IMG/VR virus record: IMGVR_UViG_3300034356_001231
Coordinates: 1-64,000 of that record
Source of the DNA: a virus
Reading direction: 5' to 3' (one strand)
Length of the DNA stretch: 64,000 bases
Under the pieces are notes generated by a model. That model ran no database searches and was not told where the DNA came from. It saw only the letters and a program-made list of their open reading frames with translations. The first letter of the stretch is position 1, and every line of letters begins with the position of its first letter. A program made the translations under genes and the position numbers. Positions 19,970 through 60,112 of the stretch are shown here, piece after piece.

Positions 19970-20776
19970 ATGAACGACGCTAAAATTATTGCTATTACAC
20001 AACCAACGATAACACTTCCGCCAAGCGATGAATTGTTTGGACAAATCCGCCCTATGACTGCCGAAGAGTTTATCTGTTATACAGCAAGAGTTTCTAATCC
20101 ATCTAATCAGAATAACACACTAACTGCACCTAAACTTCTAAAGTATCTTATCAGAAATCGCCACTGGAGTCCTTTTGAACAAGTATCCATTACCATGGAT
20201 ATTACAACAACCCGAGACATTGCCCATCAGATCATTCGCCATCGTTCATTCTCATTCCAGGAGTTTAGTCAGCGTTATGCCGATCCTACTAAGGACATGC
20301 AGTTTGTGACGAGAGAAGCAAGACTACAGGATGCTAAGAACCGTCAGAATAGTATTGAGACGGATGATGCTGTAAAGTCACAGAATTGGGAGATAAAGCA
20401 ACGCCACATTCAGCATAATGCGGAACAAGCATATCGTTGGGCTATTGAAGAAGGCATTGCCAAAGAACAAGCCAGAGCAATTCTACCAGAAGGTCTAACC
20501 ACAACCCGTCTATATATGGCAGGGACACTTCGTTCTTGGATTCACTATATCGATGTTAGAGCCGAAGCAGGAACACAGAAAGAACACCGTCAGGTTGCTC
20601 TTGCTGCACAGGAAGAGATTCTAAAACACTTCCCGTCATTGAAAGAGTATTGGGTTTCTTCTGTTGCTATGGAATGGGGAAAAGATAGACTGATAACAGA
20701 AGAACCTATTAGTGAGAAAGACGTTAAAGAATGGTATGGCATTTCTGACAAACCTTGGTGGAAGTTTTGGTCATGA
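19970..20776 (+). CDS. thyX: Flavin-dependent thymidylate synthase
   Basis: HWSPFE, RHRSFSFQEFSQRY. Confidence 0.95.
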   Translation: MNDAKIIAITQPTITLPPSDELFGQIRPMTAEEFICYTARVSNPSNQNNTLTAPKLLKYLIRNRHWSPFEQVSITMDITTTRDIAHQIIRHRSFSFQEFSQRYADPTKDMQFVTREARLQDAKNRQNSIETDDAVKSQNWEIKQRHIQHNAEQAYRWAIEEGIAKEQARAILPEGLTTTRLYMAGTLRSWIHYIDVRAEAGTQKEHRQVALAAQEEILKHFPSLKEYWVSSVAMEWGKDRLITEEPISEKDVKEWYGISDKPWWKFWS

Positions 20777-47827: not shown

Positions 47828-47844
47828 GTCAAAACTCTCCATTA

Positions 47845-47915
47845 TATAAATAAGCGTAGGTCACGGGACGCCAATCCCTACCTACTCTAACGCTAAACAG
47901 GAGCGCCAGCATATG
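47845..47915 (+). promoter_or_regulatory. Late promoter plus structured RNA leader of GIY-YIG gene (copy B)
   Basis: TATAAATA, then GTAGGT-C-A-C-GGGA-CGCCAA-TCCC-T-ACCTAC and RBS hairpin CGCT/AGCG. Confidence 0.75.
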
Positions 47916-48431
47916 ATTATATATAAAATCACCAACCTTATCAATGGTAAATTTTACGTAGGTAAGTCCACAAAAACTACCGAAGAAAGATTTAAGCGTC
48001 ATTATTACAATCACAAATCTGGTAACACCTATCTCTATAAGTCGATGAGAAAACATGGCTTCGATAATTTTGTTATTGAAACAATAGAAGAAACCACATA
48101 TATCGACGAAAGAGAAAAGTTCTGGATTTCAGAACTGGCGCCACATTACAATATGACAAAAGGAGGAGATGGCGGTGATACTTCTAGCTCTCCAAATTTT
48201 ATCGAAGGCATAAAGAAAAGACCGCCACCACCTCCCACTTATGGTATGCTCGGAAAGAAACAATCTGATAAGTTTTTTGAAGCTATCAGAAAATCCAATA
48301 GTCGCCCAGTTATGTGCGAAGGAAAAAGATATGCTTCTATCAACGAAGCTCAAGAAGCATATCCTGGTATTTCTATTCGCAAAAGATTAGACAATCCAAA
48401 GTATTCCGAGTTTTATAGATTAGAAAGTTGA
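47913..48431 (+). mobile_element. Free-standing GIY-YIG homing endonuclease
   Basis: IYKITN..FYVG, YNMTKGGDG; antisense insertion between gp45 and gp44. Confidence 0.88.
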
Positions 48432-49073
48432 GCTTGATTCAACTGCAATATAATATTCTACATCATCACGCACAAAATGCGAAATGCCCTTTGATGAGAT
48501 ATTAACATCATAATCGCCAGGAATAATCTTAATATTCTCAGCCTTAAAAATTGCCTTGAACGCCTTATCAGTCTCGCCAATCTGGATAGAATAAACGTCG
48601 CCAGAAGGATTCTTAGAATCAGCAGCCTGAAGATATAGATTCTTACCGTCGCCCATGACAACAATCTCCGGTAGAGCAAGAATGCCAGAAGCCTTCTCAA
48701 CATCCCGTAGATTATCATTAGTTAAACGGAAAGTAACGTCAACCGAAGGGAGATTGATTTCTCTGTCCGGAGCCTTTGTTACCGTGGTTTCGTCAGCATA
48801 AACATAATGAGTCTTACGATTGTTGTCAGAAATATCAACAGACTTATCTCCAAACTTAAAATCTGGATCAGTAAAAGTGCTAACGATCGAGATGAAACGA
48901 TCGAGATTATAGATTGCAAATCGCTTATCAAAATCTGTCTTTACCTTTGCCTTTGCCATGATTGTCTTGGTTGGCGAAATAGTCTTAAGAACATTACCTT
49001 CCTGGATAACAATGGAAGGATTAATCTTAGCAAAATTCTTAAGAACATTAACTGTATCTGTATCAATCTTCAT
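48420..49073 (-). CDS. 45: Sliding clamp, gp45-like
   Basis: LKNFA.IN.SI, FAIY.L..F, YYIAVE. Confidence 0.95.
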   Translation of the reverse strand: MKIDTDTVNVLKNFAKINPSIVIQEGNVLKTISPTKTIMAKAKVKTDFDKRFAIYNLDRFISIVSTFTDPDFKFGDKSVDISDNNRKTHYVYADETTVTKAPDREINLPSVDVTFRLTNDNLRDVEKASGILALPEIVVMGDGKNLYLQAADSKNPSGDVYSIQIGETDKAFKAIFKAENIKIIPGDYDVNISSKGISHFVRDDVEYYIAVESSSTF

Positions 49074-49089
49074 AATGTATTTTCTCCTA

Positions 49090-49962
49090 TCACTTGTTCT
49101 TTGATTTCATCATTTTCTTTGACTTCAATGCTCCAGGATCAGCAGTAGCTGAAGCACCAATCGAAGCAAGGTCAGCAAGCGAACCACCAAATATGTAAGT
49201 TCCAACATGCTGCATCTTCATCCATGGACAGAACCATGTCTTAAGATCAATTGCCTGCGCCTTTTGACAGAACCAATAATCTTCTGAAAGATAACGCTTA
49301 GATACCGGATCAATTTCTGCCTGGAAGAACTGAAGAATCTCACGGCTACCATCAAAATGCTCAGTGCGAACATGATCAGGCTTGTAAGAATACTGATCCT
49401 TATATGCGTCATAGAACTTAGTCATGGCCTTCTTAGAAACCATCATGAATCCAGTTCCGATCTCGAGAACTTCAACTGGCTCTGCGATTGGAATAGAAGT
49501 CTGATGACCCTTGGGATTGAAAACATAATCACCAACGAAACGCTCTAGAACGTTTGGATCATCATCAGCAACACCCTTATCTACAGCGTGCTTAATCTTT
49601 TCCCAAGAGATACACTTCTTAGGATATGGGCCACCAATAATGTCATACTTATCTTCTTCAAGAGCCTGCAGAGACATTAGAGCAATAACATCCTGTGGAT
49701 TGAATCCGATGTCAGAATCAATAAACATTAGATGCTGTGATTCAGAACGCATAAACTCATCACAACAATAGTTACGAGCTCGAGTAATTAGCGATTCATT
49801 GAACAAATAATAAAACTGAAGAGGAATACCATACTGCGTACATAGAGCAGAAAGATCTGCACACGAACGAGCAAACATACCAGCGCACTGTCCGCCATAC
49901 ATTGGTGTGGCGACAAATAACTTGCGCTCTCTTAGTTTTTCAATTGGGATCTTAATTTCCAT
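49090..49962 (-). CDS. GT-A fold glycosyltransferase-like protein
   Basis: ATPMYGG, SLITRARN, FIDSD (DxD), GTGFM, YLSEDY.FC. Confidence 0.75.
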   Translation of the reverse strand: MEIKIPIEKLRERKLFVATPMYGGQCAGMFARSCADLSALCTQYGIPLQFYYLFNESLITRARNYCCDEFMRSESQHLMFIDSDIGFNPQDVIALMSLQALEEDKYDIIGGPYPKKCISWEKIKHAVDKGVADDDPNVLERFVGDYVFNPKGHQTSIPIAEPVEVLEIGTGFMMVSKKAMTKFYDAYKDQYSYKPDHVRTEHFDGSREILQFFQAEIDPVSKRYLSEDYWFCQKAQAIDLKTWFCPWMKMQHVGTYIFGGSLADLASIGASATADPGALKSKKMMKSKNK

Positions 49963-49974
49963 AATATACCTTTC

Positions 49975-50163
49975 TTATGCTGTAATAGTATTATGATATT
50001 TACAAGTGTTACAATGAACTTTTTTTCTAGGAGGGTTTGATAGTAAGACGATGCCAGGTTCAGACAAAACTAATTCATCACCACAAGCTGGACACTGAAT
50101 GCCAGTGCCATGCCTTTCTCTCAATAATCTTTTCTCTTCTTCGTATTCCTCAATAGTCTTCAT
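49975..50163 (-). CDS. Zinc-ribbon protein
   Basis: CPAC..CNTC. Confidence 0.55.
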   Translation of the reverse strand: MKTIEEYEEEKRLLRERHGTGIQCPACGDELVLSEPGIVLLSNPPRKKVHCNTCKYHNTITA

Positions 50164-50507
50164 TTCCTATCCTTATAATGATCTGCATAAAGCATCATTA
50201 TAACATAATGAAGAACTTTTAGCAAGTCATCTTTATTGCTGCCATGCTTTTTACCATAGCGCCAAAGATATTTGATAGCAGTGTTTCGGAAGGTAGGCAT
50301 AGAATCACCAAGAGCAAGCCACACATCGAAACATTCTATATTCTCTTCTTCAGTCATATAATGCTGCCCATATGTCTTATCTATATAGGCGTGGAAATCA
50401 GCAATAATCTGATCTTCCATATATTTGTATTTAGGCGCAACCTTTCCAGCAACATCCAATTTATAACTAACACCTGATGGTATTTCACTATATAACCTGC
50501 TCATCAT
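50160..50507 (-). CDS. DUF3310-like small helical protein
   Basis: TY.QHY, AIKYLWRYGKK, DLLKVLHY. Confidence 0.7.
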   Translation of the reverse strand: MMSRLYSEIPSGVSYKLDVAGKVAPKYKYMEDQIIADFHAYIDKTYGQHYMTEEENIECFDVWLALGDSMPTFRNTAIKYLWRYGKKHGSNKDDLLKVLHYVIMMLYADHYKDRK

Positions 50508-51040
50508 GCCTCCAAATATTTCATAATGTAATCCACAATAATCTTCTGATCTTCTTTGTTATTGTTTTTAAATTTAACAGTGTTAAACATAAGAGTCATA
50601 TTCGTTAGAATATTTGCAATCTTAGTTTCTCTTCCCTGTAACCAAGTTTCGTTTTGGTTACTTCCACGCTCCTTATAACGTTCTTGCCGAACAGCTTTAT
50701 CGGTTTCTAGATAAATTATATCAGTGTTATAATTGTTCACACAATGTTCTAAGAACGTTGATGTGAAAAGACGGTCGCCCTCAAAAAGAACAACCGAATC
50801 TTTATGCAAACTTGCTAAGAATTTAACTGCTTCTGGCTGAACTGCCATAGACATACGATCTGTTCCAGAGAAAGTTTCACCTTCGTCATACTTACCCAAA
50901 ATATAATTACAATCATATTGAAGATACGGAACAAGTTTTACTTCATCATAAACTTTTATCCAATTAAATTTCGAAATAATTTCTTTCATTAAAGTAGATT
51001 TGCCAGCACCTGGCTCGCCACCAATCGCAAATACAAGCAT
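50504..51040 (-). CDS. P-loop kinase (candidate hydroxymethyl-pyrimidine DNA kinase)
   Basis: GGEPGAGKST, GTD..S, EGDRL; adjacent to DNA transferase. Confidence 0.75.
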   Translation of the reverse strand: MLVFAIGGEPGAGKSTLMKEIISKFNWIKVYDEVKLVPYLQYDCNYILGKYDEGETFSGTDRMSMAVQPEAVKFLASLHKDSVVLFEGDRLFTSTFLEHCVNNYNTDIIYLETDKAVRQERYKERGSNQNETWLQGRETKIANILTNMTLMFNTVKFKNNNKEDQKIIVDYIMKYLEA

Positions 51041-52038
51041 TATGTAAACCTTTCAAGTCCGACCTTTTCAGGCTCAACAAACAAACCTGTGCAGTCTAGA
51101 ATACCATTCTCACTATACAAAGCCATTTTACTATTGTTTATGTGATTAGTCAATAGTTTATTATTTAGAGTTTCATTACGAGCGTCCCACATTGGTTGCC
51201 AATCAATACCATCCCATCCATCTTTTTCACACTGAGTAATTTCTTCAGCCTGACGATCTAGATAATAACCAAGATATCGACCATGTTTTACTCTGAATAA
51301 CTTTTTAAAAGAACAGAGACATGTTTCCATATCAAAATAATCAGTGTCAGGAAAGTCTTTCTTAACTTCTTCTAGAATTAGATACGCCTGTGCTTCCAGA
51401 TAAGCAAGTTGACTGACATCTAATTTTTTATCAATCCATTCAGGCTTACCAAGAGCGAAGCATAAACCATTGCGGTGAGATCTTGAGCCAGAATAATCTT
51501 CAAGCATTAGACTGCTCGGTTCAATTGGTAAACCGCAACATTGCTTTAATGTTTGCATGTAGAACCAAGTTGAATATCTACCAAACTTATGAAAGTTTCC
51601 CTTGACCTCGTCCCATAGTAAACTGAAACTTAATTTAGGGCTACCCGGAGCAAGGAAATCTTTAAACGCTTCTGCTTGCGATCTATCACCAACCCAGTTT
51701 TTATAAGATTCAAACTGAGCAGGTAGATGGCCTTTGTTCCATTTAGTATCTGTTTGATACCGTAGACGTTTATAATTCTTACTGTTCCAATCTTTCAAAC
51801 GATCAAGACCAACAAGTTCCATATCAGGAAACTCGTTCCAGATAACCCACGTTGTCGGAAAATGATACGTTGTACCGTAGATCCAAGCAATCCAGAGTTT
51901 CTGTTCTCTGTTATGTTCGAACCTACGGAACAAGTAATTGGTCATAAAGATAGCGGGGTCGCAATCCTTAATGGAAAGCGACCACCGATACCAGTTTATA
52001 AAATCTTGCTTACGCTGCTTTACGATTTGCTGGTTCAC
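51040..52038 (-). CDS. Amino acid:DNA transferase (aGPT-pyrophosphorylase-like, HhH glycosylase fold)
   Basis: DCDP, FGRYS.W.Y, ETCLCSFKK, RY.GYY.DR. Confidence 0.75.
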   Translation of the reverse strand: MNQQIVKQRKQDFINWYRWSLSIKDCDPAIFMTNYLFRRFEHNREQKLWIAWIYGTTYHFPTTWVIWNEFPDMELVGLDRLKDWNSKNYKRLRYQTDTKWNKGHLPAQFESYKNWVGDRSQAEAFKDFLAPGSPKLSFSLLWDEVKGNFHKFGRYSTWFYMQTLKQCCGLPIEPSSLMLEDYSGSRSHRNGLCFALGKPEWIDKKLDVSQLAYLEAQAYLILEEVKKDFPDTDYFDMETCLCSFKKLFRVKHGRYLGYYLDRQAEEITQCEKDGWDGIDWQPMWDARNETLNNKLLTNHINNSKMALYSENGILDCTGLFVEPEKVGLERFT

Positions 52039-53350
52039 TTATTACCTTATTTGTCCTGGTGTCCCAGAAGCAAGGAAGAAATTCCAACTCGATCCATTCA
52101 AGTTTAGCAATGGCCAAACATTCACGGACTTCTTGCTCAAGAACATCTCTCTCAAGATATTCTTCAACATTCTTAAAGTGAATGAATATTTTGCCTTTCG
52201 GATTATTTCTTGCCGAGGGACGATTCTTTGTCTTTTGGCGCAAACTATTTACCACACCACCAATACCCGAGTGAATGACAGTGCTTATAGACTGACTGAT
52301 ACAACCAGCATAAGGATTTTCTGCAAGGTAAGAATTTACCTTCTTCTTCAGATCCTTATCTACCCAGTTATAGAAATTATACTTGCTGTTAATTTCGTTA
52401 GTGAAATAACGATCTTTAGCAGCGCTGATCAAACTCTTTAGAGACTTCTCAGAGAATTCTCCAAGATAAAGATCAAATACAATTTCTTCCATTTCATCTG
52501 AATCAAAAGGAATTCCATCGACATAAAGAGCTTCAATCTTGCGCTTCACATCTTCCTTAGAATTACCTTCCTTGACAACTGGCTCGTGATTCATAAGAAC
52601 CCCGAAATGATCCATAATAGAAGGATCATCAAGGAATTCGTCAGAATTAATATAAATTACGGGCACAGTTGCCCATTTAGCTTCAATTGCTGCACTGAGC
52701 GTATGATTACCATCAAGAATCTTTTTCTTGCCGTCACGGAAAACAACAACCACAATAGGATTGATATGCTGATTGGCACGCTCTGGATCGTTCATACGAT
52801 CTACAAGTTTATTTACATGATGATTATGACGTAGCTTAAAACGAATTTGAATTCGTTCGAAATTCGCCAACTCTCCAACGTAAACATTATGGACTTCATA
52901 ATGTTTCTTGATTTTGTTTTCTTTTACCTTATTTGCAATCGATCGAGCAAGACGAATATGCTCCTTATACGTAGATCTAGCTTTTTCGATAATGAAATCT
53001 GTAGAAATACATCGGCTAACGATCTCTCGCATTTTATCTGTGACGTGCGAAAGACTACATCCAGCACCACCACCATTTGTCTTATTATACATATCTGGGT
53101 TATTACGAGCATCTAATACATCAAGCATATAATGCTCGAGCGAGATACACTGTTCTAATGTGCCTTCAAAAAATTCTACTCGACGAAGAAACCCTTTGTT
53201 CCAGGCATCATTAAACGCTGGATCAGTAGAGCTCGAAGTGTAATAGTCTGAAACATTCTTATCAGAAAGTTTATGATAACCTACATAGACAATCTTAGTA
53301 GTTTCACGATTATACCAAAGATAACAAATAGCCTGTTTTGCAGTTTTCAT
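52010..53350 (-). CDS. GIY-YIG-like N-terminal domain fused to ParB/Srx-like domain
   Basis: CYLW..YVGYH..Y.SS..E..YN..NGGG; PIVVV..ILDGNHT. Confidence 0.6.
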   Translation of the reverse strand: MKTAKQAICYLWYNRETTKIVYVGYHKLSDKNVSDYYTSSSTDPAFNDAWNKGFLRRVEFFEGTLEQCISLEHYMLDVLDARNNPDMYNKTNGGGAGCSLSHVTDKMREIVSRCISTDFIIEKARSTYKEHIRLARSIANKVKENKIKKHYEVHNVYVGELANFERIQIRFKLRHNHHVNKLVDRMNDPERANQHINPIVVVVFRDGKKKILDGNHTLSAAIEAKWATVPVIYINSDEFLDDPSIMDHFGVLMNHEPVVKEGNSKEDVKRKIEALYVDGIPFDSDEMEEIVFDLYLGEFSEKSLKSLISAAKDRYFTNEINSKYNFYNWVDKDLKKKVNSYLAENPYAGCISQSISTVIHSGIGGVVNSLRQKTKNRPSARNNPKGKIFIHFKNVEEYLERDVLEQEVRECLAIAKLEWIELEFLPCFWDTRTNKVISEPANRKAA

Positions 53351-53421
53351 AGGTCACTCCTTTTTGGACCGTTTCAAAATATTGGGCTTCCTTTACATCA
53401 CCCAATAAACATATACTACCA

Positions 53422-53958
53422 CTATTCTGCGAAAATGTCAAGTCCTTTATATTCGACGAAGAGCTCTACGCAGCCTCCCTTTCCTTTTTTCGTTGCAGCC
53501 TTATAGATTATATCGTCGAGAGAGTAATCAATCTTCTCGAATTCCGAAGAATTAATCTTAAACATAGCCAATAGACATCCACTTTTCTGTTTACCTACGA
53601 ATTGTATGCCTAGTTTTTTGTAGAACGGTATAGCTGGAATTTCCGAAGAAACTCTGAAATAATGTGCGCTCGAATAGAAAGCGTAATACAAAGAATGATT
53701 GCATAGCTTTCTAGCAACTCCTTTGTTCCTATGCGCATAAAAAGTATGAAGCAATTGAAGGTTAGCCGTATAAGGTTTACGTTTCGAAATAGTTGTGAGA
53801 ATGGCTCCGGCAAGGTCATCGCCTTCCCAGAGCCCAACAACTTCATTCCATTTGTCTAGCATGTCGCATTTAGCAACAAATGTTTTGGCAAACTTATCTT
53901 CTTTACGATCGCTAATGTTTGCTATAAATTGTTCTTTTGTAACTGTTTTAAACTGCAA
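53422..53958 (-). CDS. GNAT acetyltransferase
   Basis: HRNKGVARKL, AIPFYKKLG; TTG start overlapping upstream stop. Confidence 0.8.
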   Translation of the reverse strand: MQFKTVTKEQFIANISDRKEDKFAKTFVAKCDMLDKWNEVVGLWEGDDLAGAILTTISKRKPYTANLQLLHTFYAHRNKGVARKLCNHSLYYAFYSSAHYFRVSSEIPAIPFYKKLGIQFVGKQKSGCLLAMFKINSSEFEKIDYSLDDIIYKAATKKGKGGCVELFVEYKGLDIFAE

Positions 53959-54820
53959 TGAACTCTCGGGATTTCTTTCCTCGCTCTTTTCCATATTTTG
54001 TTTTCTCCCATGACGTATAAATCTCGTGATCATATTTTAGTTCTGGAAATTTATAATCGCCTTCAAGAAGAATTTGTAGAACATCTGGGCCATTATTGAG
54101 CGCAGCGTCTATAAACGCTTCAACAAATCTAAATGAATCTTCTAACTCTCTACGGTCAAAAGAATTACGGAAACAACGGAACTCAATAGTTCCTGTGTGT
54201 TTCATACAATATGTATTAATTGCATAACGGAAAGGACGACCCATAGAAACGCCATCTTTACCTGCGCAATGTAACTTAATAAAGTGTTCAAAGTCGGTTG
54301 TAAGATTAATAATGTTGTTGCACATATAATCAGGCATCAACCTACCACAATCTAACTTCAAATAAGTCTTTGCTGTTTTTGTAGAAGCCATATCTGGGTG
54401 CAATCTAAATGCATGGATACGATCAACTACTACATGTTGATTTTCTTTGATGTATGCAACCAACCGTTTGAGCGCATCAACATCTTCTTTTAGACCTGGA
54501 ACATATACATGAACATGATTATGAGAAATACAATTACTAGTAGGATTGTTACCGTGCGATTTATAAAAATCAAGAATCTCAAAAATTCTGTCAACCTGTT
54601 CCTTCCAAGTTTTCGTTGGTCTTACATTAATTTCGCCGCCAAATGGTGGTTCAATACCAAGAGGATCACAAGCGATACCACGATAAGGTGGATTGAGATT
54701 CACTACGTCAGTTTCTGAAAATTCCCATTTACCTAAATGTTCTGGAAGTGGGAGACGACGATCAACATCCCCCACTTCCATTTCAAACCCCCATGTGAAG
54801 TCTTTTTTGTTATATGTCAT
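53948..54820 (-). CDS. Amidoligase (glutamate-cysteine ligase-like COOH-NH2 ligase)
   Basis: TWGFEME, GGEIN, HVHV, TIEFR. Confidence 0.8.
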   Translation of the reverse strand: MTYNKKDFTWGFEMEVGDVDRRLPLPEHLGKWEFSETDVVNLNPPYRGIACDPLGIEPPFGGEINVRPTKTWKEQVDRIFEILDFYKSHGNNPTSNCISHNHVHVYVPGLKEDVDALKRLVAYIKENQHVVVDRIHAFRLHPDMASTKTAKTYLKLDCGRLMPDYMCNNIINLTTDFEHFIKLHCAGKDGVSMGRPFRYAINTYCMKHTGTIEFRCFRNSFDRRELEDSFRFVEAFIDAALNNGPDVLQILLEGDYKFPELKYDHEIYTSWEKTKYGKERGKKSREFIAV

Positions 54821-55500
54821 TGCAAATCCTCAATAGCAGGAAACTCATACTTATTATAGCTTACAATTTTGAAATTTTCAACAATAAAATGTTCATACAT
54901 AGAAGCAGTAACTTGAACGTCAAGACCGCTTCTTTTCAGAATATCTCTGGTAGAAGCAAATATAATACCGTTCTCATTGTAAGAATAATGAAGTGGTCGA
55001 GATTCATTCCGGAATGCGGTAAGAACTTTATCCTTGTCAATAGTGCAAACAGACATGCTTGCAGGATGAAACTTATGTAAAGGAACTTCACCAGTTTCTA
55101 AACAACGTAAAATTAATTCGCTATCGTTCTTTGTAATTACATCATATCCAAAAGTTTGTTTCCATTGTTCTGGATCTTCTTGAGAAATGACTCCATTGTG
55201 GACAATAGAAAGTTCTTCAGTAGCCATTGGTTGATTGTAAGCAAGATCGCTCGTTGAGTAACGAACATGGCCAATGCAATAAAGATTGCCATCTTCGTTT
55301 ACCCAACTGGGAATATCCTGATTGTTGATAAAGGTACAGGCGTTCACAGGTTCTTTGATAGTATGAACCTTACTGTTCTTTACATATGATACTCCTGTAG
55401 CGTGCTTGCCACGAATCATTGATTGAATAAAAAGCCGACGAACAAGTTCGAATTCGTGCTCGCTCGGTTTCTTTATAGCTATTCCTAATACTCCACACAT
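54817..55500 (-). CDS. Class II (Ntn) glutamine amidotransferase
   Basis: N-terminal MCG, RG.HATG, GHVRYST, HNG, DSE. Confidence 0.9.
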   Translation of the reverse strand: MCGVLGIAIKKPSEHEFELVRRLFIQSMIRGKHATGVSYVKNSKVHTIKEPVNACTFINNQDIPSWVNEDGNLYCIGHVRYSTSDLAYNQPMATEELSIVHNGVISQEDPEQWKQTFGYDVITKNDSELILRCLETGEVPLHKFHPASMSVCTIDKDKVLTAFRNESRPLHYSYNENGIIFASTRDILKRSGLDVQVTASMYEHFIVENFKIVSYNKYEFPAIEDLQ

Positions 55501-56873
55501 TAGAAAAATGATTCCAATGAAGCCACTTCGTCTTTGCCGTAAGGATCTTTCATTCCATGAGCGTGAAGATAATCATACCATTCTTGCTCTTCCCACATTC
55601 CAGGAGAAACACCATTCCACAATGGACGATGTAATGGATGATCTTTATTCATACGACGTTCTTCCACAAATTGCTTACGCAGCAATTCATAGTCATATGA
55701 TTTCAACTCAAGCATTTTCTCACGGAAATAGCAGACTACAGATATGCGCTCACAAGAAGGATCATCAGGCTTATTAAGCACGATAGGAGTATTACCATGG
55801 ATAATCTCATGGTTGTTAACGAGTAACAAATCGCCAGGACGCACATTAACAGCGATACGATACTCAGGAAATATAAGATAACCACCAGTATATTCTCCAG
55901 AACCAAGAACAAGTAGATTAGATAAACCAGAATCAAGATCACCAGCATCTCGATGACATGCTGTCCGAAAAGTCTTGTTCACAGTCAATGTAGTAAACAC
56001 TGTTTCAGGAACAAGAAACCTTGGATCAAGTTTATCTGCTGCAGCTTTCTGATTGCCCCAACGCCAAGGAAGTAATTCTCTAAAACCTTTATTCAGTGTT
56101 TGGAGAAATGGATACGCCTTTGAAAACAATTCTGGATGGTTTTCAGTATATGCAGTAGCACGACCATACGGAATACGTGGGTATCGATCGTACCAACCAG
56201 CAACGCCCGAAAACACTGACTTTGCATAGTTAGTAGTTGATGCCCACTTTTCAGCAACCTTTCTCGCCTCTGCACGCACTTCTTCGTTTGGTTTATTAGA
56301 TAAACCATCAACCCATTTATCAAACCAACCATGATATTCCGGATACACTTTCTGGACTTCTGAACGTAACCATACAGTACCACGAGTTTCATCTGCAGGT
56401 TTAAATTTAGGATCTGCATACTTAGCGCGAATAGATGCAACTGAATTGTCATCAATTACCTTTGCACCATCATCCATAAGAAAGTCTAAAATCTCCTGTT
56501 GATAAGGAGTAACCCAATCACGACCACCACGACCTTCACATGCTAGCATGTCACCACGAGGACCAGCAGCAAGACCACGATTTTGAGATTCAGTAGCTGC
56601 TTGCCTTAGACCTTCATATGCCTGATCGCATTCTTCTTTAGTGAAGTAGTTCTTACGAAACTTAAATGCAATACGTAATTCATCGTTGCCTTTATCGCAA
56701 TCTTCGCATTCTTTAGTCCCACAATCTGCTTTGGTAAGCGGATCACATAGCGGTGGCATATAACAATCAGTATCTTCTTCAATCAAAATATCATAATGAC
56801 TCTCGTCAACGAAAGTGCCAAGAAGATGTTCACAATCATGTTTTTGACGAGCAACAATACGTCTTACCATCAC
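55500..56873 (-). CDS. 2OG-Fe(II) dioxygenase, TET/JBP-like
   Basis: FTT.TVN..FRTACHRDAGD (HxD), HGNT, RISVVCY.R. Confidence 0.8.
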   Translation of the reverse strand: MMVRRIVARQKHDCEHLLGTFVDESHYDILIEEDTDCYMPPLCDPLTKADCGTKECEDCDKGNDELRIAFKFRKNYFTKEECDQAYEGLRQAATESQNRGLAAGPRGDMLACEGRGGRDWVTPYQQEILDFLMDDGAKVIDDNSVASIRAKYADPKFKPADETRGTVWLRSEVQKVYPEYHGWFDKWVDGLSNKPNEEVRAEARKVAEKWASTTNYAKSVFSGVAGWYDRYPRIPYGRATAYTENHPELFSKAYPFLQTLNKGFRELLPWRWGNQKAAADKLDPRFLVPETVFTTLTVNKTFRTACHRDAGDLDSGLSNLLVLGSGEYTGGYLIFPEYRIAVNVRPGDLLLVNNHEIIHGNTPIVLNKPDDPSCERISVVCYFREKMLELKSYDYELLRKQFVEERRMNKDHPLHRPLWNGVSPGMWEEQEWYDYLHAHGMKDPYGKDEVASLESFF

Positions 56874-57250
56874 TTATCTCCGTATAGAACACTTTTAATA
56901 TCTGGAGCAGTCCAGCCTTCGGGTTTCAAAATCTTACCATCATCACGACGAACTACTTTACCGTCTACTAGTTTTTCCATGTTAGATCTATGGACTTCGT
57001 TGAAGACTCTGTCCAATGGAATCCCATAAGATGCAGCAGTGCCACAAACAATGTAAATAATATCAGCAAGCTCTTTGGCGACATTCTCTAGATCATCCTT
57101 ATCTTCACCATCAAAATATTCTTCTACTTCTTCTTTTAAAAGTTTACGACGCAATACACGTTCATTCTCATCAGGAAATTCAGGCACTTCGCTGACATTC
57201 TGACCGACTGCTGTTTGAAACTTTTTTACTTCTTGAAACATATTAGACAT
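56870..57250 (-). CDS. MazG-like NTP pyrophosphohydrolase
   Basis: EEVEE..KELAD, EVHRSNM.K, DGKILKP. Confidence 0.85.
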   Translation of the reverse strand: MSNMFQEVKKFQTAVGQNVSEVPEFPDENERVLRRKLLKEEVEEYFDGEDKDDLENVAKELADIIYIVCGTAASYGIPLDRVFNEVHRSNMEKLVDGKVVRRDDGKILKPEGWTAPDIKSVLYGDK

Positions 57251-57806
57251 AGATCCACTCCGGAGGGTTACGTTTTTTCCATTTATGAAGATGTGTTTTA
57301 CCCATCTTATAATAGTTACGATAATTTATTATTGGGTCAGAGTCAATAATATATTCTGGCGCCATACACGAAGGCATGGTAGTCATATCATACTCTTGTA
57401 AATTTTTAGGTGGAGAAGCCAACGTCGCTGATATTTCTCCATAACACTTATGCGTCTTTTCATAACGATAGGTATACTCTTGCATCAACGCAAAGAAATG
57501 ATCTACCAACCAATTGTAATTCTCGACGCTACTGCGAGCCCATACAGCAGATGGGTGATTGATGTGCGTAGCTGAATATATAATTTGTTCGCGCGAGTCA
57601 TTTAGTAACCACCATTTTTTCTTGCGTGTTTTAATTTTACCATCTTCCTGCTCAACCTGCACCTCGAGTTGAATTTCTCGACCGTCTAGTAAACGATGTG
57701 CTGTAGAAAGCAACTGAGCGGATTCGAGGATCATCTTAACAACATGACGATCTACCATCCACTCGGCTGCTTCCACGGGGTTATCAGAAATATAGAAAAT
57801 ATTCAT
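57243..57806 (-). CDS. Pyrimidine-dimer DNA glycosylase-like protein
   Basis: MNIF, D.HVVKMILESAQLLST, H.NHP, EY..RY.K.H. Confidence 0.8.
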   Translation of the reverse strand: MNIFYISDNPVEAAEWMVDRHVVKMILESAQLLSTAHRLLDGREIQLEVQVEQEDGKIKTRKKKWWLLNDSREQIIYSATHINHPSAVWARSSVENYNWLVDHFFALMQEYTYRYEKTHKCYGEISATLASPPKNLQEYDMTTMPSCMAPEYIIDSDPIINYRNYYKMGKTHLHKWKKRNPPEWIYV

Positions 57807-57912
57807 TTTTTTCTCATATACCAATAAACAAATATTGCGAACACAATTAGTATAAACCATTGTTCATAATATTCAAGCATTAAATTCAGTTTATAGAAAT
57901 TAAAAAAATGAT

Positions 57913-58380
57913 TCATTGTTTCCACTTTCTCATTGCTTGGTCTCGATGAAACTTGTTAGCTCTATCATAAAAACGAATGCCTTGCAAGTGATCATATTCG
58001 TGTTGAAATACTCTAGCAGACATACCTATAAACTGTTTTGTCAAACTATCTCCATTAGGAGTATTGAATCGAACACGAACTACTGTTGGTCTTTTAATTT
58101 TAACTACTAATCCAGGATAAGATAAACACCCTTCCTCGAGAACTACGTCGTCTTTAGATTGACTAACTATCTTAGGATTATAACAAACAAAATTTTCCGG
58201 AGCTCCACGCATAGCGAAAATACGATAAGGCACTCCTACTTGGTTTGCTGCCACTCCAAGACCATTGTTCTCATACATAAATTTGATGAGACTCTGCGCG
58301 AAATCAATCGGATCGAAGGGAGGATCTTTAAAATCGAATTCTTCACATTGTTCTAAAAGATATCTATCATCTAGTTTCAT
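57913..58380 (-). CDS. def: Peptide deformylase
   Basis: GVAANQVG, EGCLS, QHEYDHL.G. Confidence 0.92.
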   Translation of the reverse strand: MKLDDRYLLEQCEEFDFKDPPFDPIDFAQSLIKFMYENNGLGVAANQVGVPYRIFAMRGAPENFVCYNPKIVSQSKDDVVLEEGCLSYPGLVVKIKRPTVVRVRFNTPNGDSLTKQFIGMSARVFQHEYDHLQGIRFYDRANKFHRDQAMRKWKQ

Positions 58381-58411
58381 ATTATAACCTCGATTTTCAT
58401 TTTAGTCAATA

Positions 58412-60112
58412 TTATTGTATCTGAGAGAAATTTTTATTTTTCACGAATTTCAATACGTTATTGAACTTCTCGTTCAAATGTTCTTTGTGCGATATAATGA
58501 TAATATTACTATCTTTGGATATCTCACGAATAATATTCATAAGATAATCTGTTGCATTTTGGTCCAAAGAAGAATCGAACACTTCGTCCATTATTAAAAG
58601 ATTTGTGCTTATTGAGTTACGAAGTTTGGCAATTGCTCTCCATGTAAACAATAAAGCCAAATCAATTTTCTGTTTCTCTCCTTCAGAGAAAGATGCGTAT
58701 GAAAAATCATCTCTATATCTAGACTTGATTGTTTCGTTAAAATTTTCATCGAGTTCAAACGAAACAAAAAAATCCATAGAAGAAAGGTATTTATTAATCA
58801 ATTTGTTAATGACAGGAATATACTGCCTAATAATTTTAGATTTAATTCCTGTATCTTTTAATAAAACTGTTGCTGCGCTCAAAACTTCTTTTTCTTCGCT
58901 TAATTCATTATATCTAGTTTCTAACGCATTCAATTCTTTTTCGTAGTCTACTATTTTAACATCAACCACTTCATTTTTATCTTTTAGATTTTCTATCTCT
59001 TGATTCAATTGTTCGATATATTTGTTTAAAGAATTTATTGTTGTTTTGTATTCAACTCTTTCCATTTCAAATTTCTGAATATCATTGTTCATATTCATAA
59101 TTTGTTTTAGGCGGTTATTAGCAGTTTCATACTCTAAAGATAATAACTTCAACCCTTCTTCAGTATCTTTGATCTGAGAAGTTTTTTCCTCTATAGTTTT
59201 GTCTCTAAAATTTTTATCAATATTTTGTTTACATGTGGGGCAATTTTCGTGATTACTAAAGAAAACAACATCTTGATTTAGAATGGCTACTTTTGCTTCT
59301 ATCTGATGACGAAGTTTAGAGAGTTTTTCTAGTTTTCTAGAAACGCTATCATTGTCGCCAATATCTTTCTTACAAATTTCTATTTGTTTTGTTATTCTAT
59401 CAATTTTATTAGTATACTCTTGGATTTTTTTATTGGTGTCTTTTATGTTTTTTTCTTTTTCCTCTACCAATTTATTATTATTAATCTGAAGTTCTTGCAA
59501 ATGACTTTTAGTCAATTCAATTTTAGAGTTGACTAGTTTTTTAGAAGTATTAACTTCGTAGATATTTTCACTGTTTATAAGAACTTTATCTTTTAATATA
59601 GAATTCATAACAGTAAAGATTTGAAGGTCTAATAGATCCTCAATAATTTCTCTACGCTGACCAGAAGACAACTGCATAAAAGGCTGAAAGGTAGCTGAAC
59701 CTAGAACAACTACCTGCGAAAAAGATTTATGATTTACTTTGATAATTTGTTTTTCTAAAAGTTCCTGGTAATCTTTCATCTCAGCGTTTTGATTTAAAAG
59801 ATTACCGTTCTGATATACTTCAAAAACAGTTGGCTTTATACCACGAACAATCTTATACTCTTTAGAACCTATAGAAAATTCTATTTCTACCAAGCAGTTC
59901 TTTTGTGTGATTGAATTTACAAGTTGTGGTTTGTTTATCTTTCGGAACGGTTTACCAAAAAGACCAAAACTCAACGCATCTAGAATCGTAGACTTCCCAG
60001 CCCCATTCTGTCCAACAATGAGTGTAGTCTCTTTGCTTGCTAAATTGATTTCTGTAAAAACGTTTCCAGTCGAAAGGAAGTTCTTCCATTTTAATTTCTT
60101 AAAGTGAATCAT
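58412..60112 (-). CDS. 46: Recombination endonuclease ATPase subunit, gp46 (SbcC/Rad50-like)
   Basis: GQNGAGKST, CPTC hook, FSEGEK, DEVFD. Confidence 0.95.
   Translation of the reverse strand: MIHFKKLKWKNFLSTGNVFTEINLASKETTLIVGQNGAGKSTILDALSFGLFGKPFRKINKPQLVNSITQKNCLVEIEFSIGSKEYKIVRGIKPTVFEVYQNGNLLNQNAEMKDYQELLEKQIIKVNHKSFSQVVVLGSATFQPFMQLSSGQRREIIEDLLDLQIFTVMNSILKDKVLINSENIYEVNTSKKLVNSKIELTKSHLQELQINNNKLVEEKEKNIKDTNKKIQEYTNKIDRITKQIEICKKDIGDNDSVSRKLEKLSKLRHQIEAKVAILNQDVVFFSNHENCPTCKQNIDKNFRDKTIEEKTSQIKDTEEGLKLLSLEYETANNRLKQIMNMNNDIQKFEMERVEYKTTINSLNKYIEQLNQEIENLKDKNEVVDVKIVDYEKELNALETRYNELSEEKEVLSAATVLLKDTGIKSKIIRQYIPVINKLINKYLSSMDFFVSFELDENFNETIKSRYRDDFSYASFSEGEKQKIDLALLFTWRAIAKLRNSISTNLLIMDEVFDSSLDQNATDYLMNIIREISKDSNIIIISHKEHLNEKFNNVLKFVKNKNFSQIQ

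What the first reader, a model, noticed from the sequence alone, without database searches (positions are those of the whole stretch)
49090..57250. DNA hypermodification operon driven by a TET/JBP-like dioxygenase, product base unknown
Seen: a mostly start/stop-coupled minus-strand run (one gap at 53351-53421) of MazG-like pyrophosphatase, 2OG-Fe(II) dioxygenase, Ntn glutamine amidotransferase, amidoligase, GNAT, amino-acid:DNA transferase, P-loop kinase, DUF3310-like protein and GT-A glycosyltransferase, just upstream of the sliding clamp. Established: phiW-14, SP10, ViI and M6-type phages phosphorylate 5-hmU in DNA and displace the phosphate with an amine, and they get hmU from a dUMP hydroxymethylase. 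Here the window shows ThyX (ordinary dTMP) and neither a hydroxymethylase nor a C5-methyltransferase. Inference: thymine is oxidised after replication, JBP-style, then phosphorylated and substituted with an amine that the amidotransferase, amidoligase and GNAT build or elaborate. Similar neighbourhoods have been predicted computationally, but I know of no characterised base for this full set.
Basis: partly seen in the sequence, partly recalled or inferred. Interest (0 to 1): 0.88.

Follow-up and report, generated by a model that had tools for sequence, protein, structure and literature searches.

The report
TET-primed thymine hypermodification gene cassette
A T4-like phage fragment carries a gene cluster of an already published kind that most likely oxidises thymine in its DNA and then attaches and tailors an amino-acid-like group; the final base is still unknown.

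Summary
Window 49090-57250 (minus strand) is a tightly packed gene run encoding a MazG-like protein, a Tet/JBP dioxygenase, a class II glutamine amidotransferase, an Amidoligase_2-like protein, a GNAT, an amino-acid:DNA transferase (AADT), a P-loop kinase, a DUF3310 protein and a GT-A-like protein.

One is a 62-aa zinc ribbon. The other is a 446-aa protein (52010-53350) that models as a GIY-YIG-like domain plus a ParB/Srx domain.

No ThyA-type hydroxymethylase or C5-methyltransferase was found in the 87.8-kb contig, nor in a 98%-complete relative with the same cassette. Post-replicative T to 5hmU oxidation is therefore the best reading.

The idea is not new. Lee et al. 2021 (PMC8989533) described Tet_JBP replacing dUMP hydroxymethylase next to the kinase, AADT, amidoligase and amidotransferase. 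O'Toole et al. 2026 (PMC13229309) showed phage T-dioxygenases, some ParB-dependent, linked to exactly these genes. This is a new member of that class, and its product base is uncharacterised.

New here:
- The Tet gene sits in a conserved T4-like frame, followed by a swappable cassette with 9 main types (11 classes counting A-type sub-variants) in 61 related loci.
- The nuclease-like/ParB gene is a discrete module, replaced between phages that are otherwise 97-99% identical.

MazG, DUF3310 and the GT-A gene are conserved flanks, not cassette-specific.

The parts
56870..57250 (-). MazG/PRA-PH-like nucleotide pyrophosphohydrolase. It is a conserved flank upstream of the dioxygenase, not cassette-specific.
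   Evidence: Pfam PRA-PH 9.5e-19 and MazG 3e-6. tblastn finds it next to Tet in loci of all cassette types, except in most of the more distant loci where Tet is 63-73% identical.
55500..56873 (-). Tet/JBP-family Fe(II)/2OG 5-methylpyrimidine dioxygenase (5mYOX), 456-457 aa. Proposed reaction: thymine to 5hmU in DNA.
   Evidence: Pfam Tet_JBP 4.6e-23 and phrog_24024 1.3e-149. AF2 model with pLDDT 72.2. Foldseek against the PDB gives NgTET1 5e-9, CcTet and TET2 as top hits. H307, D309, H359 and R376 are invariant in 20 sequences. 2652 homologues at E<=0.001.
54817..55500 (-). Stand-alone class II (Ntn) glutamine amidotransferase.
   Evidence: Pfam GATase_6 3.6e-12 and GATase_7 2.8e-7. The protein starts MCGVLG, so the nucleophile Cys directly follows Met.
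53948..54820 (-). Amidoligase_2-like protein (ATP-dependent carboxylate-amine ligase family).
   Evidence: PF12224 matches 21 of 21 aligned family members at E<=1, best 2.5e-6. The window protein alone scores 0.053. Four hits of 61-65% identity carry a precomputed PF12224 annotation.
53422..54033 (-). GNAT acyltransferase. The likely start is the second ATG at 53994 (190 aa, as in L016).
   Evidence: Pfam Acetyltransf_10 2.3e-7 and Acetyltransf_1 5.5e-6. Sequence read. The L016 homologue is 190 aa.
53351..53421 (-). The only sizeable intergenic gap. It holds a sigma-70-like consensus match and a strong Shine-Dalgarno sequence ahead of the 446-aa gene.
   Evidence: TTGACA-17-TAGTAT with TG at 53441-53413. 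This is a consensus match only: promoter-like sites in the region are not above chance, 37 found against 34.4 +/- 6.1 expected. Sequence read.
52010..53350 (-). It has a GIY-YIG-like N-domain (about residues 6-92), a ParB/Srx-fold domain (about 133-316) and an unassigned alpha/beta C-terminal domain. It is a discrete, swappable module.
   Evidence: AF2 model with pLDDT 84.3 and pTM 0.74. Foldseek gives ParB-CDP 6sdk at 9.6e-5, then Noc, KorB and sulfiredoxin. VIA-align for the central domain: pNOB8 ParB-N Z 9.5, PadC 9.3, Srx 9.1, KorB 8.7. VIA-align for the N-domain: I-TevI Z 6.5, PD-T4-3 6.3, UvrC GIY-YIG 5.6, T4 EndoII 5.3. Pfam ParB_N matches 9 of 21 members and GIY-YIG 3 of 21 at E<=1. 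Only 18 homologues were found. Nucleotide homology to relatives breaks exactly at this gene.
51040..52038 (-). Amino-acid:DNA transferase (AADT, formerly aGPT-Pplase2).
   Evidence: Pfam ADDT 3.5e-24. tblastn gives 28.2% identity, E 4e-27, to ViI orf00247, which is gp247, the serine:DNA transferase of Lee et al.. E238 and C242 are conserved in 12 of 13 rows of A6. The exception is a Cr30 ORF that I chose wrongly.
50504..51040 (-). P-loop nucleotide-kinase-like protein. Proposed role: 5hmU DNA kinase.
   Evidence: Pfam Ploopntkinase3 9.8e-13. It always lies next to an AADT-type gene in related cassettes, except in type F. It shows no pairwise similarity to ViI gp243, which is Pfam HMUD2.
50160..50507 (-). 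DUF3310 protein, a conserved flank downstream of the cassette.
   Evidence: Pfam DUF3310 3.9e-5 and phrog_480 1.2e-23. It is present behind TAGT-only cassettes as well. In some loci the same position holds a dGTP_diPhyd_N protein.
49975..50163 (-).
   Evidence: Pfam Zn_ribbon_IS1595 8.5e-5, below the cut-off. phrog_30869 4.2e-8.
49090..49962 (-). GT-A-like glycosyltransferase, a conserved neighbour of the sliding clamp.
   Evidence: Evidence. Its homologues are 66% identical in DLP_6, 56% in Cr30, and 45% in Sinorhizobium phages phiM12, phiN3 and phiM7, in which the Tet tblastn found nothing. 5245 cluster representatives at E<=0.001.
20057..20638 (+). ThyX (flavin-dependent thymidylate synthase), the source of ordinary dTMP.
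   Evidence: PF02511 1.8e-44.

Best explanation
This is a post-replicative thymidine hypermodification cassette in a T4-like phage.

Inferred steps:
1. The phage makes ordinary dTMP with ThyX and replicates with T.
2. The Tet/JBP dioxygenase hydroxylates a fraction of thymines in DNA to 5hmU.
3. The P-loop kinase phosphorylates the hydroxymethyl group.
4. The AADT uses its conserved Cys/Glu pair to displace the phosphate with an amino acid or amine.

My specific guess for the tailoring genes, at about 30% for the details:
- The Amidoligase_2 enzyme activates the carboxylate of the appended amino acid.
- The class II amidotransferase supplies ammonia from glutamine, turning the carboxylate into an amide.
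- The GNAT acylates the remaining amine.
- Alternatively, the three enzymes build the donor before transfer.

What is shown here: gene identities, conserved catalytic residues, synteny, and the absence of alternative sources of 5hmU or 5mC. Every chemical step is inferred from characterised homologues (ViI/M6/PaMx11 AADT pathways and the phage T-dioxygenases of O'Toole et al.).

The 446-aa GIY-YIG-like/ParB-Srx protein is an optional add-on to the cassette. I rate it as:
- about 45% a nuclease-type or selfish/conflict module
- about 30% a ParB-type activator of the dioxygenase, as published
- 25% something else

MazG, DUF3310, the Zn ribbon and the GT-A gene belong to the conserved frame around the cassette.
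For: - Gene identities.
- Catalytic residues: Tet H307/D309/H359/R376 invariant in 20 of 20. AADT E238/C242 are shared with ViI gp247. The GATase begins MCG.
- The Tet fold matches NgTET1, CcTet and TET2.
- No PF00303 or PF00145 in the own contig.
- In four related virus contigs, including G001 (162 kb, 98% complete, same cassette, Tet 86% identical), 0 of 4 have PF00303 and 0 of 4 have PF00145. ThyX is present in 3 of 4.
- In sister loci the same Tet (79-85% identical) is followed only by a TET-associated glycosyltransferase (PF20691), the base-J logic that needs 5hmU.
- Literature: Lee 2021 states that contigs lacking dUMP hydroxymethylase encode Tet_JBP next to 5-HMUDK/AADT, with amidoligase and amidotransferase genes of unknown role. 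O'Toole 2026 shows T to 5hmU by phage 5mYOXs and links the ParB-dependent subclass to GATases, P-loop kinases and AADTs.
- For the slot gene as an optional module: 6 of 16 A-type loci lack it, 3 carry a version in which I read an HNH-type motif by eye, and 7 carry the GIY-YIG type. L016 and L017 are 99.4% and 97.5% identical on either side of it, with no nucleotide match across it. Weak ParB_N hits occur only in the three cassette-A genomes searched, and not in G003 or G004, whose Tet is 71% and 84% identical.
Against: - No chemistry was measured.
- Burke 2021 found several clade C1 enzymes inactive on both T and 5mC.
- The kinase is Ploopntkinase3. It shows no similarity to the characterised ViI gp243 kinase, which is HMUD2, so its substrate is inferred from context only.
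- Caulobacter phage Cr30, which has a related Tet plus AADT plus kinase, does encode a ThyA-family protein, so a ThyA-type enzyme is not excluded in every relative.
- The own contig is only 53% complete.
- A-type cassettes without the amidoligase exist (type A2, 2 loci). This weakens a strict GATase-amidoligase pairing.
- Amidoligase/GATase pairs in other phages have been suggested to act on non-DNA targets (discussion in PMC10580990).
Confidence: 0.72

Rival explanations
1. The 446-aa protein is the ParB-type activator of the dioxygenase, and the locus is a standard member of the published ParB-dependent 5mYOX subclass. On this reading the Tet enzyme would be nearly inactive on double-stranded DNA without it.
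For: - Its central domain has the ParB/Srx fold, with CTP-binding ParB, Noc and KorB as top matches.
- Q168 and R170 are invariant. By my recalled reading of the ParB motif they occupy the place of the ParB Q-x-R box.
- O'Toole 2026 reports that ParB-dependent 5mYOXs are consistently linked with GATases, P-loop kinases and AADTs.
- The window Tet has about 70 residues beyond the last core strand. The paper describes a C-terminal extension as exclusive to ParB-dependent enzymes.
Against: - In the published ParB176 the nucleotide-binding domain starts at the N-terminus: the mutated residues are N14, R16, S29 and R56. Here it starts near residue 133, behind a GIY-YIG-like domain.
- The GERR-type box reads G-N-H-T (the motif name is recalled).
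- 6 of 16 A-type loci, and all 45 loci of other cassette types, lack any detectable homologue.
- G003 and G004 (87% and 82% complete) have no ParB_N hit anywhere at E<=0.1.
- L016 and L017 have 99% identical Tet genes but slot proteins that are far apart: 54% and 26% identical to the window protein, with no nucleotide match to each other. That sits badly with the cognate-pair specificity reported in the paper.
Confidence: 0.3
2. The 446-aa gene is a nuclease-type add-on. It is either a free-standing homing-endonuclease-like selfish gene or a phage-encoded nuclease that discriminates DNA by modification state. It rides in the cassette but is not needed to make the base.
For: - The N-domain superposes on I-TevI (Z 6.5, 81 residues, 21% identity), the 5hmC-specific nuclease PD-T4-3 (6.3), UvrC GIY-YIG (5.6) and T4 EndoII (5.3).
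- Y10, Y22, G24, Y37, E72 and N89 are conserved.
- In L024 and L035 the same slot holds proteins in which I read a D-H...N...N (HNH-type) N-terminus plus a DGNTR motif by eye. That would be a displacement of one nuclease domain by another.
- The gene is present, absent or replaced between near-identical phages, with homology breaking at the ORF ends.
- It has its own gap, Shine-Dalgarno sequence and a promoter-like site.
- Only 18 homologues exist.
- One of 21 family members hits a PADLOC homing-endonuclease model at 2.1e-5.
Against: - The Z scores of 5-6.5 for the N-domain lie within the range the tool calls common.
- The catalytic Arg of GIY-YIG enzymes is not evident in the alignment (my reading).
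- No HMM hit to GmrSD, BrxU, SspE or DndB families.
- The upstream gap does not share the 60-nt leader found before the two clear homing endonuclease genes of this phage.
- The gene's 3' end overlaps the AADT start by 29 nt, as for an integrated operon gene.
- A distant homologue in another T4-like phage again sits beside likely modification genes, an epimerase and a UDP-glucose dehydrogenase. This suggests a functional tie to modification.
Confidence: 0.45
3. The dioxygenase acts on 5-methylcytosine, installed by a host or an undetected phage methyltransferase. The cassette would then build a cytosine-derived hypermodification.
For: - Phage TETs of clades A and B oxidise 5mC. Burke 2021 proposed that P-loop kinases could phosphorylate 5hmC in some contigs.
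- The two 5mYOXs reconstituted in vitro in O'Toole 2026 also support iterative oxidation of 5mC (abstract).
- The best structural matches are 5mC enzymes, though no T-specific structure stands out in the library.
Against: - No PF00145 in the own contig or in 5 of 5 related records, including one that is 98% complete.
- The AADT is homologous to enzymes characterised on 5-phosphomethyl-dU.
- O'Toole 2026 infers that 5mYOX pathways without a C5-MT natively make 5hmU.
Confidence: 0.08
4. The amidotransferase, amidoligase and GNAT are not DNA-modification enzymes. They would be an auxiliary metabolic or cell-envelope module that merely lies between Tet and the AADT.
For: - Amidoligase plus GATase pairs occur in many phages without Tet. 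They have been suggested to modify the cell wall or make secondary metabolites (PMC10580990 discussion, citing Iyer 2009).
- Their role is stated as unknown in Lee 2021.
Against: - They are embedded by overlapping start and stop codons between Tet and the AADT.
- In the 61 loci they occur only in cassettes that also have this AADT type and the kinase: 18 of 18 A and A2 loci, and 0 of 43 others.
- Published surveys find the same association.
Confidence: 0.1

Closest known systems
ParB-dependent phage T-dioxygenase (5mYOX, Clade C1) gene clusters, O'Toole et al. PNAS 2026 (PMC13229309)
   Same: A Tet_JBP dioxygenase without a neighbouring C5-MTase, clustered with a GATase, a P-loop kinase, an AADT and a ParB/Srx-fold protein. 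The logic is post-replicative T to 5hmU oxidation as a priming step.
   Different: - The ParB-like protein here has an extra N-terminal GIY-YIG-like domain and a degenerate G-N-H-T box. It is absent from, or replaced in, close relatives.
- The Tet is about 456 aa, against about 290-300 aa stated for the ParB-independent enzymes.
- Clade membership could not be tested because the sequences are in closed supplements.
- The final product is not characterised in the paper or here.
5-hmdU-derived thymidine hypermodification of ViI, M6, PaMx11, PhiW-14 and SH-Ab 15599 (Lee et al. NAR 2021, PMC8989533; Li et al. NAR 2026, PMC13458397, outline and one section read)
   Same: An AADT/Pplase2 with the conserved Glu/Cys, 28% identical to ViI gp247. 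A neighbouring P-loop kinase. A GNAT, as in PaMx11.
   Different: - In those phages 5hmdU comes from a dUMP hydroxymethylase before replication. Here no ThyA-family gene was found, and a Tet enzyme is present.
- The kinase belongs to a different Pfam family (Ploopntkinase3, not HMUD2).
- The tailoring enzymes are GATase plus amidoligase, instead of PLP, radical-SAM or FAD enzymes.
Base J synthesis (JBP1/2 plus glucosyltransferase) and phage Tet plus TAGT clusters
   Same: Hydroxylation of thymine in DNA by a Tet/JBP enzyme. In 20 of 61 sister loci the same Tet is followed only by a TET-associated glycosyltransferase (PF20691).
   Different: The window cassette has no TAGT. It routes 5hmU to a kinase/AADT pathway. 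The nearby GT-A gene is a conserved flank of unknown acceptor.
Nucleases built from a nuclease domain plus a ParB/Srx-type domain (GmrSD/BrxU-type type IV restriction enzymes), and GIY-YIG enzymes such as T4 EndoII and PD-T4-3
   Same: The domain logic of a nuclease fold plus a ParB/Srx fold. Structural similarity of the N-domain to GIY-YIG nucleases, including two that discriminate modified from unmodified DNA.
   Different: - No HMM match to GmrSD_N, DndB or any PADLOC defence model for the window protein.
- The domain order is the reverse of GmrSD (order recalled).
- Activity is untested.

Membership tests
Tet/JBP 5-methylpyrimidine dioxygenase (PF12851) | Double-stranded beta-helix with an HxD...H iron triad and a 2OG-binding Arg | tested here: met
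   Pfam 4.6e-23. H307, D309, H359 and R376 are invariant in 20 of 20. Foldseek gives NgTET1 at 5e-9, then CcTet and TET2.
Phage T-dioxygenase pathway (O'Toole 2026) | No C5-cytosine methyltransferase that could supply 5mC | tested here: met
   PF00145 is absent from the own contig and from 5 of 5 related records, including G001 at 98% completeness. A host methyltransferase cannot be excluded.
Phage T-dioxygenase pathway (O'Toole 2026) | Measured T to 5hmU activity | not testable with these tools
   Needs expression and nucleoside LC-MS.
ParB-dependent 5mYOX subclass (Clade C1) | Co-located ParB homologue with a nucleotide-binding domain and a C-terminal dimerisation domain, and no DNA-binding domain | tested here: inconclusive
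   The ParB/Srx fold is present. It is preceded by a GIY-YIG-like domain, its C-terminal domain is unassigned, and its box reads G-N-H-T. The gene is missing from 6 of 16 A-type loci.
ParB-dependent 5mYOX subclass (Clade C1) | Phylogenetic or SSN placement with 5mYOX176/185, and the C-terminal extension | not tested
The window Tet has about 70 residues after the core, but no alignment to 5mYOX176 was possible.
Amino-acid:DNA transferase (AADT, aGPT-Pplase2, PF18724) | Family HMM match, plus the essential Cys and neighbouring Glu | tested here: met
   ADDT 3.5e-24. 28.2% identity to ViI orf00247. E238 and C242 align with E and C of ViI gp247. Which residues were mutated in the paper is given only in a figure that I could not see.
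5-hmdU DNA kinase (characterised: ViI gp243 and gp67, M6 gp54) | Sequence membership in the characterised kinase families | tested here: not met
   ViI gp243 is Pfam HMUD2 at 5.6e-169. The window kinase is Ploopntkinase3. BLASTP against gp243 gives E 2.9. tblastn at E<=1e-3 found no ViI or M6 record. The role is therefore inferred from context only. gp67 and M6 gp54 were not compared directly.
Amidoligase_2 (PF12224) | Family HMM match over the curated cut-off | tested here: inconclusive
   The window protein scores 13.8 bits against a cut-off of 22. 21 of 21 relatives match at E<=1, best 2.5e-6.
GT-A glycosyltransferase | GT-A family similarity and a DxD motif | tested here: met
   The profile hits A197 (2c0n) at 4.5e-5. 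Anp1 matches 23 of 29, GT21 15 of 29 and GT2 12 of 29. D82 and D84 are invariant. No structure was predicted.
GIY-YIG nuclease / homing endonuclease | GIY-YIG fold with catalytic Tyr, Arg, Glu and Asn | tested here: inconclusive
   VIA-align Z 6.5 to I-TevI over residues 6-92, plus three further GIY-YIG chains at Z 5.3-6.3. Pfam GIY-YIG matches 3 of 21. Tyr, Glu and Asn are conserved, but no conserved Arg is seen.
GmrSD / DndB-type ParB-Srx proteins | HMM match to DUF262/GmrSD_N or DndB | tested here: inconclusive
   No such hit in PADLOC or NCBIfam for 21 members. The Atlas gives feature scores of only 0.84 (DndB) and 0.80 (GmrSD_N plus GIY-YIG viral cluster), which are leads only.

The most novel reading that the evidence does not exclude
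The conserved Tet gene of this T4-like lineage acts as a universal primer ahead of a recombination hot spot, where whole tailoring cassettes are exchanged. Within the amino-acid cassette, the swappable nuclease-fold/ParB-Srx gene (a GIY-YIG type, or a version in which I read an HNH-type motif) is a modification-matched nuclease. It would attack DNA that lacks the phage's own base, whether host DNA or DNA of co-infecting relatives with another cassette. That would amount to a phage-borne restriction-modification-like pair built on a hypermodified thymine.
Probability: 0.15. Interest if true: 0.8.

Novelty: new member of a known kind. Interest (0 to 1): 0.5.

Why it matters
The class is published, but none of its amidotransferase/amidoligase-containing pathways has a known product. 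In my four literature searches on this topic I found no paper that assigns a base to this gene set.

This locus is compact, apparently intact and abundant: 258 related Tet loci in IMG/VR and 2652 Tet homologues. It has natural drop-out variants (with or without the slot gene, with or without the amidoligase, and TAGT-only) that could guide a reconstitution.

The sharp replacement of the nuclease-like/ParB gene between near-identical phages gives a direct test of whether such ParB-fold proteins are dioxygenase activators or conflict genes.

Tried and rejected
- Megablast of the 8.2-kb region against named phages found nothing.
- Complex prediction of the Tet protein with the 446-aa protein: no answer, score 0.00 in two runs, controls not run. 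It is neither for nor against binding.
- Idea that the ParB/Srx domain is of the DndB/DUF262 (GmrSD) type: no HMM support in PADLOC or NCBIfam. Only weak Atlas leads.
- Search for a solved AADT structure by sequence: only a spurious hit to a designed TIM barrel.
- Promoter and terminator scan: counts are not above shuffles for promoters (37 against 34.4) and modest for terminators (11 against 6.1). There is no T4-type late promoter TATAAATA inside 48300-58500.
- One row of alignment A6 (Cr30 L003:14238-15164) was the wrong ORF. The true Cr30 AADT is L003:13027-14256 (ADDT 1.3e-52).
- The cassette counts include near-duplicate contigs and are not independent. L004 (99% identical to the window) and 18 other loci were left out because they do not reach the GT-A gene. 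The 261-aa protein of type D2 was not scanned against Pfam.
- Iyer et al. 2013 (NAR 41:7635) is not held. What I say of it comes from citations in the papers read, or from recall.
- Supplementary datasets of O'Toole 2026 and figures of Lee 2021 may hold this very contig or its clade. I could not see them.

Full report
**What is there**

The window is the first 64 kb of an 87,808-b IMG/VR virus record rated 53% complete. Its genes mark it as T4-like: sliding clamp gp45 at 48420-49073, clamp loader gp44 at 46889-47842 and a gp46-like SMC ATPase at 58412-60112. A peptide deformylase lies at 57913-58380.

ORF coordinates confirm the coupling: neighbours overlap by 1-4 nt, by 29 nt or by 47-86 nt. 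The only real gap is 53351-53421.

**Gene identities**

| Window coordinates | Assignment | Evidence |
|---|---|---|
| 56870-57250 | MazG/PRA-PH-like | PRA-PH 9.5e-19 |
| 55500-56873 | Tet/JBP dioxygenase | Tet_JBP 4.6e-23 |
| 54817-55500 | class II amidotransferase | GATase_6 3.6e-12; starts MCGVLG |
| 53948-54820 | Amidoligase_2-like | window protein 0.053; 21 of 21 relatives match at E<=1, best 2.5e-6 |
| 53422-54033 | GNAT | Acetyltransf_10 2.3e-7 |
| 51040-52038 | AADT | ADDT 3.5e-24 |
| 50504-51040 | P-loop kinase | Ploopntkinase3 9.8e-13 |
| 50160-50507 | DUF3310 | 3.9e-5, at the cut-off |
| 49090-49962 | GT-A-like | no Pfam hit alone; see below |

- Tet: the AF2 model (pLDDT 72.2) matches NgTET1, CcTet and human TET2 first. 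H307, D309, H359 and R376 are invariant in 20 sequences.
- GT-A gene: its family profile hits the GT-A glycosyltransferase A197 at 4.5e-5. Relatives hit Anp1, GT21 and GT2 models (23, 15 and 12 of 29). A D-x-D motif is invariant.

The 446-aa protein has no Pfam hit at E<=0.01. It has weak PHROG hits to ParB-like proteins (3.2e-6) and only 18 homologues in 5.8 billion clusters.

An AF2 model from 19 sequences is confident (pLDDT 84.3, pTM 0.74). Its three parts are:
- **Central part (about 133-316):** ParB/Srx fold. Foldseek puts CDP-bound ParB, Noc, KorB and sulfiredoxin on top. VIA-align gives Z 9.5 to pNOB8 ParB-N, 9.3 to PadC, 9.1 to sulfiredoxin and 8.7 to KorB.
- **First about 92 residues:** they superpose on GIY-YIG nucleases. 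The scores are I-TevI Z 6.5, the 5hmC-specific PD-T4-3 6.3, UvrC 5.6 and T4 EndoII 5.3. These Z values are moderate, but four members of one fold hit the same stretch. Sub-threshold Pfam hits agree: ParB_N in 9 of 21 and GIY-YIG in 3 of 21.
- **Last about 120 residues:** no clear match.

In two relatives (L024, L035) the same slot holds proteins of about 490 aa. Their N-terminus reads like an HNH motif, followed by a DGNTR motif. This is my reading of the alignment, not an HMM result.

**The locus is a cassette in a conserved frame**

The Tet protein has 258 relatives in IMG/VR, of which 80 loci were kept. Mapping the window's proteins on them shows a fixed frame:

gp46 - deformylase - 205-aa protein - MazG - Tet - [variable genes] - DUF3310 - Zn ribbon - GT-A - clamp - gp44

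Among the 61 loci that span Tet to the GT-A gene (near-duplicates included):

| Type | Loci | Content after Tet |
|---|---|---|
| A | 16 | GATase, amidoligase, usually GNAT, AADT, kinase (the window's set) |
| A2 | 2 | as A, without the amidoligase |
| B | 7 | a different AADT plus an inositol-1-phosphate-synthase-like gene and kinase (as in Caulobacter phage Cr30) |
| C | 20 | only a TET-associated glycosyltransferase (PF20691) |
| D1 | 5 | an N6/N4 methylase plus AADT-like plus kinase |
| D2 | 3 | a 261-aa protein (not scanned against Pfam) plus AADT-like plus kinase |
| E | 3 | a 374-aa protein plus AADT-like plus kinase |
| F | 2 | kinase only |
| G | 3 | a GT1 glycosyltransferase plus a dGTP_diPhyd_N protein |

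Hence MazG, DUF3310, the Zn ribbon and the GT-A gene are frame genes, not cassette genes. The GT-A gene also occurs, at 45% identity, in Sinorhizobium phages where the Tet search found nothing.

**The 446-aa gene is a module within the cassette**

- Of the 16 A-type loci, 7 have a GIY-YIG-type slot gene, 3 have the HNH-type version and 6 have none.
- L016 and L017 are 99.4% identical over 3466 bp up to the end of the GNAT gene, and 97.5% identical over 2845 bp from the AADT gene on. They have no blastn match over the about 1.4 kb between.
- The window's similarity to L014 and L035 (81-82%) breaks at 53403/53417 and resumes at 52013/52021. That is exactly the ORF plus its upstream gap.
- The gap holds a sigma-70-like consensus match and a strong ribosome-binding site.
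- Weak ParB_N signals appear only in the three cassette-A genomes searched. None appears in G003 or G004, whose Tet proteins are 71% and 84% identical to the window's.

**Where 5hmU comes from**

- ThyA-family (PF00303) and C5-MTase (PF00145) genes are absent from the own record.
- They are also absent from four related virus contigs, including G001: 162 kb, 98% complete, the same cassette and Tet 86% identical.
- ThyX is present in the window and in G001. A dCMP-deaminase-like gene is at 40735-41148.
- Cr30 is an exception. It has a ThyA-family gene.

**What is already known**

- **Lee et al. 2021** (PMC8989533; passages read) characterised the kinase/AADT pathways. They state that a group of contigs lack dUMP hydroxymethylase and instead encode Tet_JBP next to the hypermodification genes. 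They list amidoligase and amidotransferase genes as associated enzymes of unknown role.
- **Burke et al. 2021** (PMC8256090; passages read) showed 5mC oxidation by phage TETs of clades A and B, and T oxidation by TET89.
- **O'Toole et al. 2026** (PMC13229309; abstract and sections 5, 6, 9, 11, 12 and 13 read) showed phage T-dioxygenases in vivo and in vitro. They defined a ParB-dependent subclass 'consistently linked' with GATases, P-loop kinases and AADTs.

What remains open is the final base. My searches found no paper that assigns one to a pathway with the amidotransferase and amidoligase.

**Mechanism**

I commit to this sequence: T to 5hmU by Tet, phosphorylation by the P-loop kinase, then displacement by an amino acid or amine through the AADT.

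- The AADT's E238 and C242 align with the Glu and Cys of ViI gp247.
- The kinase assignment is by context only. It belongs to Ploopntkinase3 and has no similarity to the characterised ViI gp243, which is HMUD2.
- For the three tailoring enzymes my guess is amidation of the appended carboxylate (amidoligase plus ammonia from the amidotransferase) and N-acylation by the GNAT. This follows asparagine-synthetase logic and the PaMx11 acetyltransferase. It is inference, at roughly 30% for the details.

For the 446-aa protein the published precedent argues for a Tet activator. Its architecture, its optional presence and its replacement between 99%-identical phages argue for a nuclease-type or conflict module. 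I rate these 30% and 45%.

**Verdict**

Interest is moderate. The locus is a clean, abundant and natural-variant-rich entry point to an uncharacterised base. The cassette hot spot and the swappable nuclease-fold/ParB gene are details that I did not find in the sections and passages of the papers I read.

Noticed in passing
window 49090-49962 and its homologues: Many homologues of the GT-A-like protein are 638-1180 aa long and match the 290-aa query in 2-4 separate stretches (for example P0139, P0142, P0143, P0162). This pattern would fit intein or other large insertions in a conserved enzyme.
   Followed up: no
window 47913-48431 (+): A free-standing GIY-YIG gene (Pfam 1.8e-9) lies on the opposite strand between the clamp loader and clamp genes. 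A TATAAATA motif sits at 47845-47852 just upstream. It looks like a typical homing endonuclease insertion.
   Followed up: partly
window 40735-41148 (-): A dCMP/cytidine deaminase-like gene (dCMP_cyt_deam_1 1.5e-15). Together with ThyX it would feed dTMP synthesis.
   Followed up: partly
window 57243-57860 (-): A 205-aa protein with no Pfam hit, conserved between the deformylase and MazG in most related loci (64-96% identity). Function unknown.
   Followed up: no
L085:6055-12430: In another T4-like phage fragment, a distant homologue (26% identity) of the 446-aa protein lies between two unknown proteins and an NAD-dependent epimerase plus a UDP-glucose dehydrogenase-like gene. This may be another DNA-modification cassette.
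   Followed up: partly
L070:13216-13656; L065-L069; Cr30 L003:12196-12723: In some relatives the position of the DUF3310 gene is taken by a dGTP_diPhyd_N (PF18909) protein. The Tet cassette is thus framed on both sides by nucleotide-pyrophosphohydrolase-like genes.
   Followed up: no
Whether that sugar ends up on DNA or on the cell surface is open.
   Followed up: no
window 55500-56873, residues about 36-62 of the protein: A Cys-rich insert (CxxxxC...CxxxxCxxC) in the Tet protein is missing in four of the twenty aligned relatives (L072, L080, L081, L083). The AF2 model is unsure there (pLDDT below 50).
   Followed up: no
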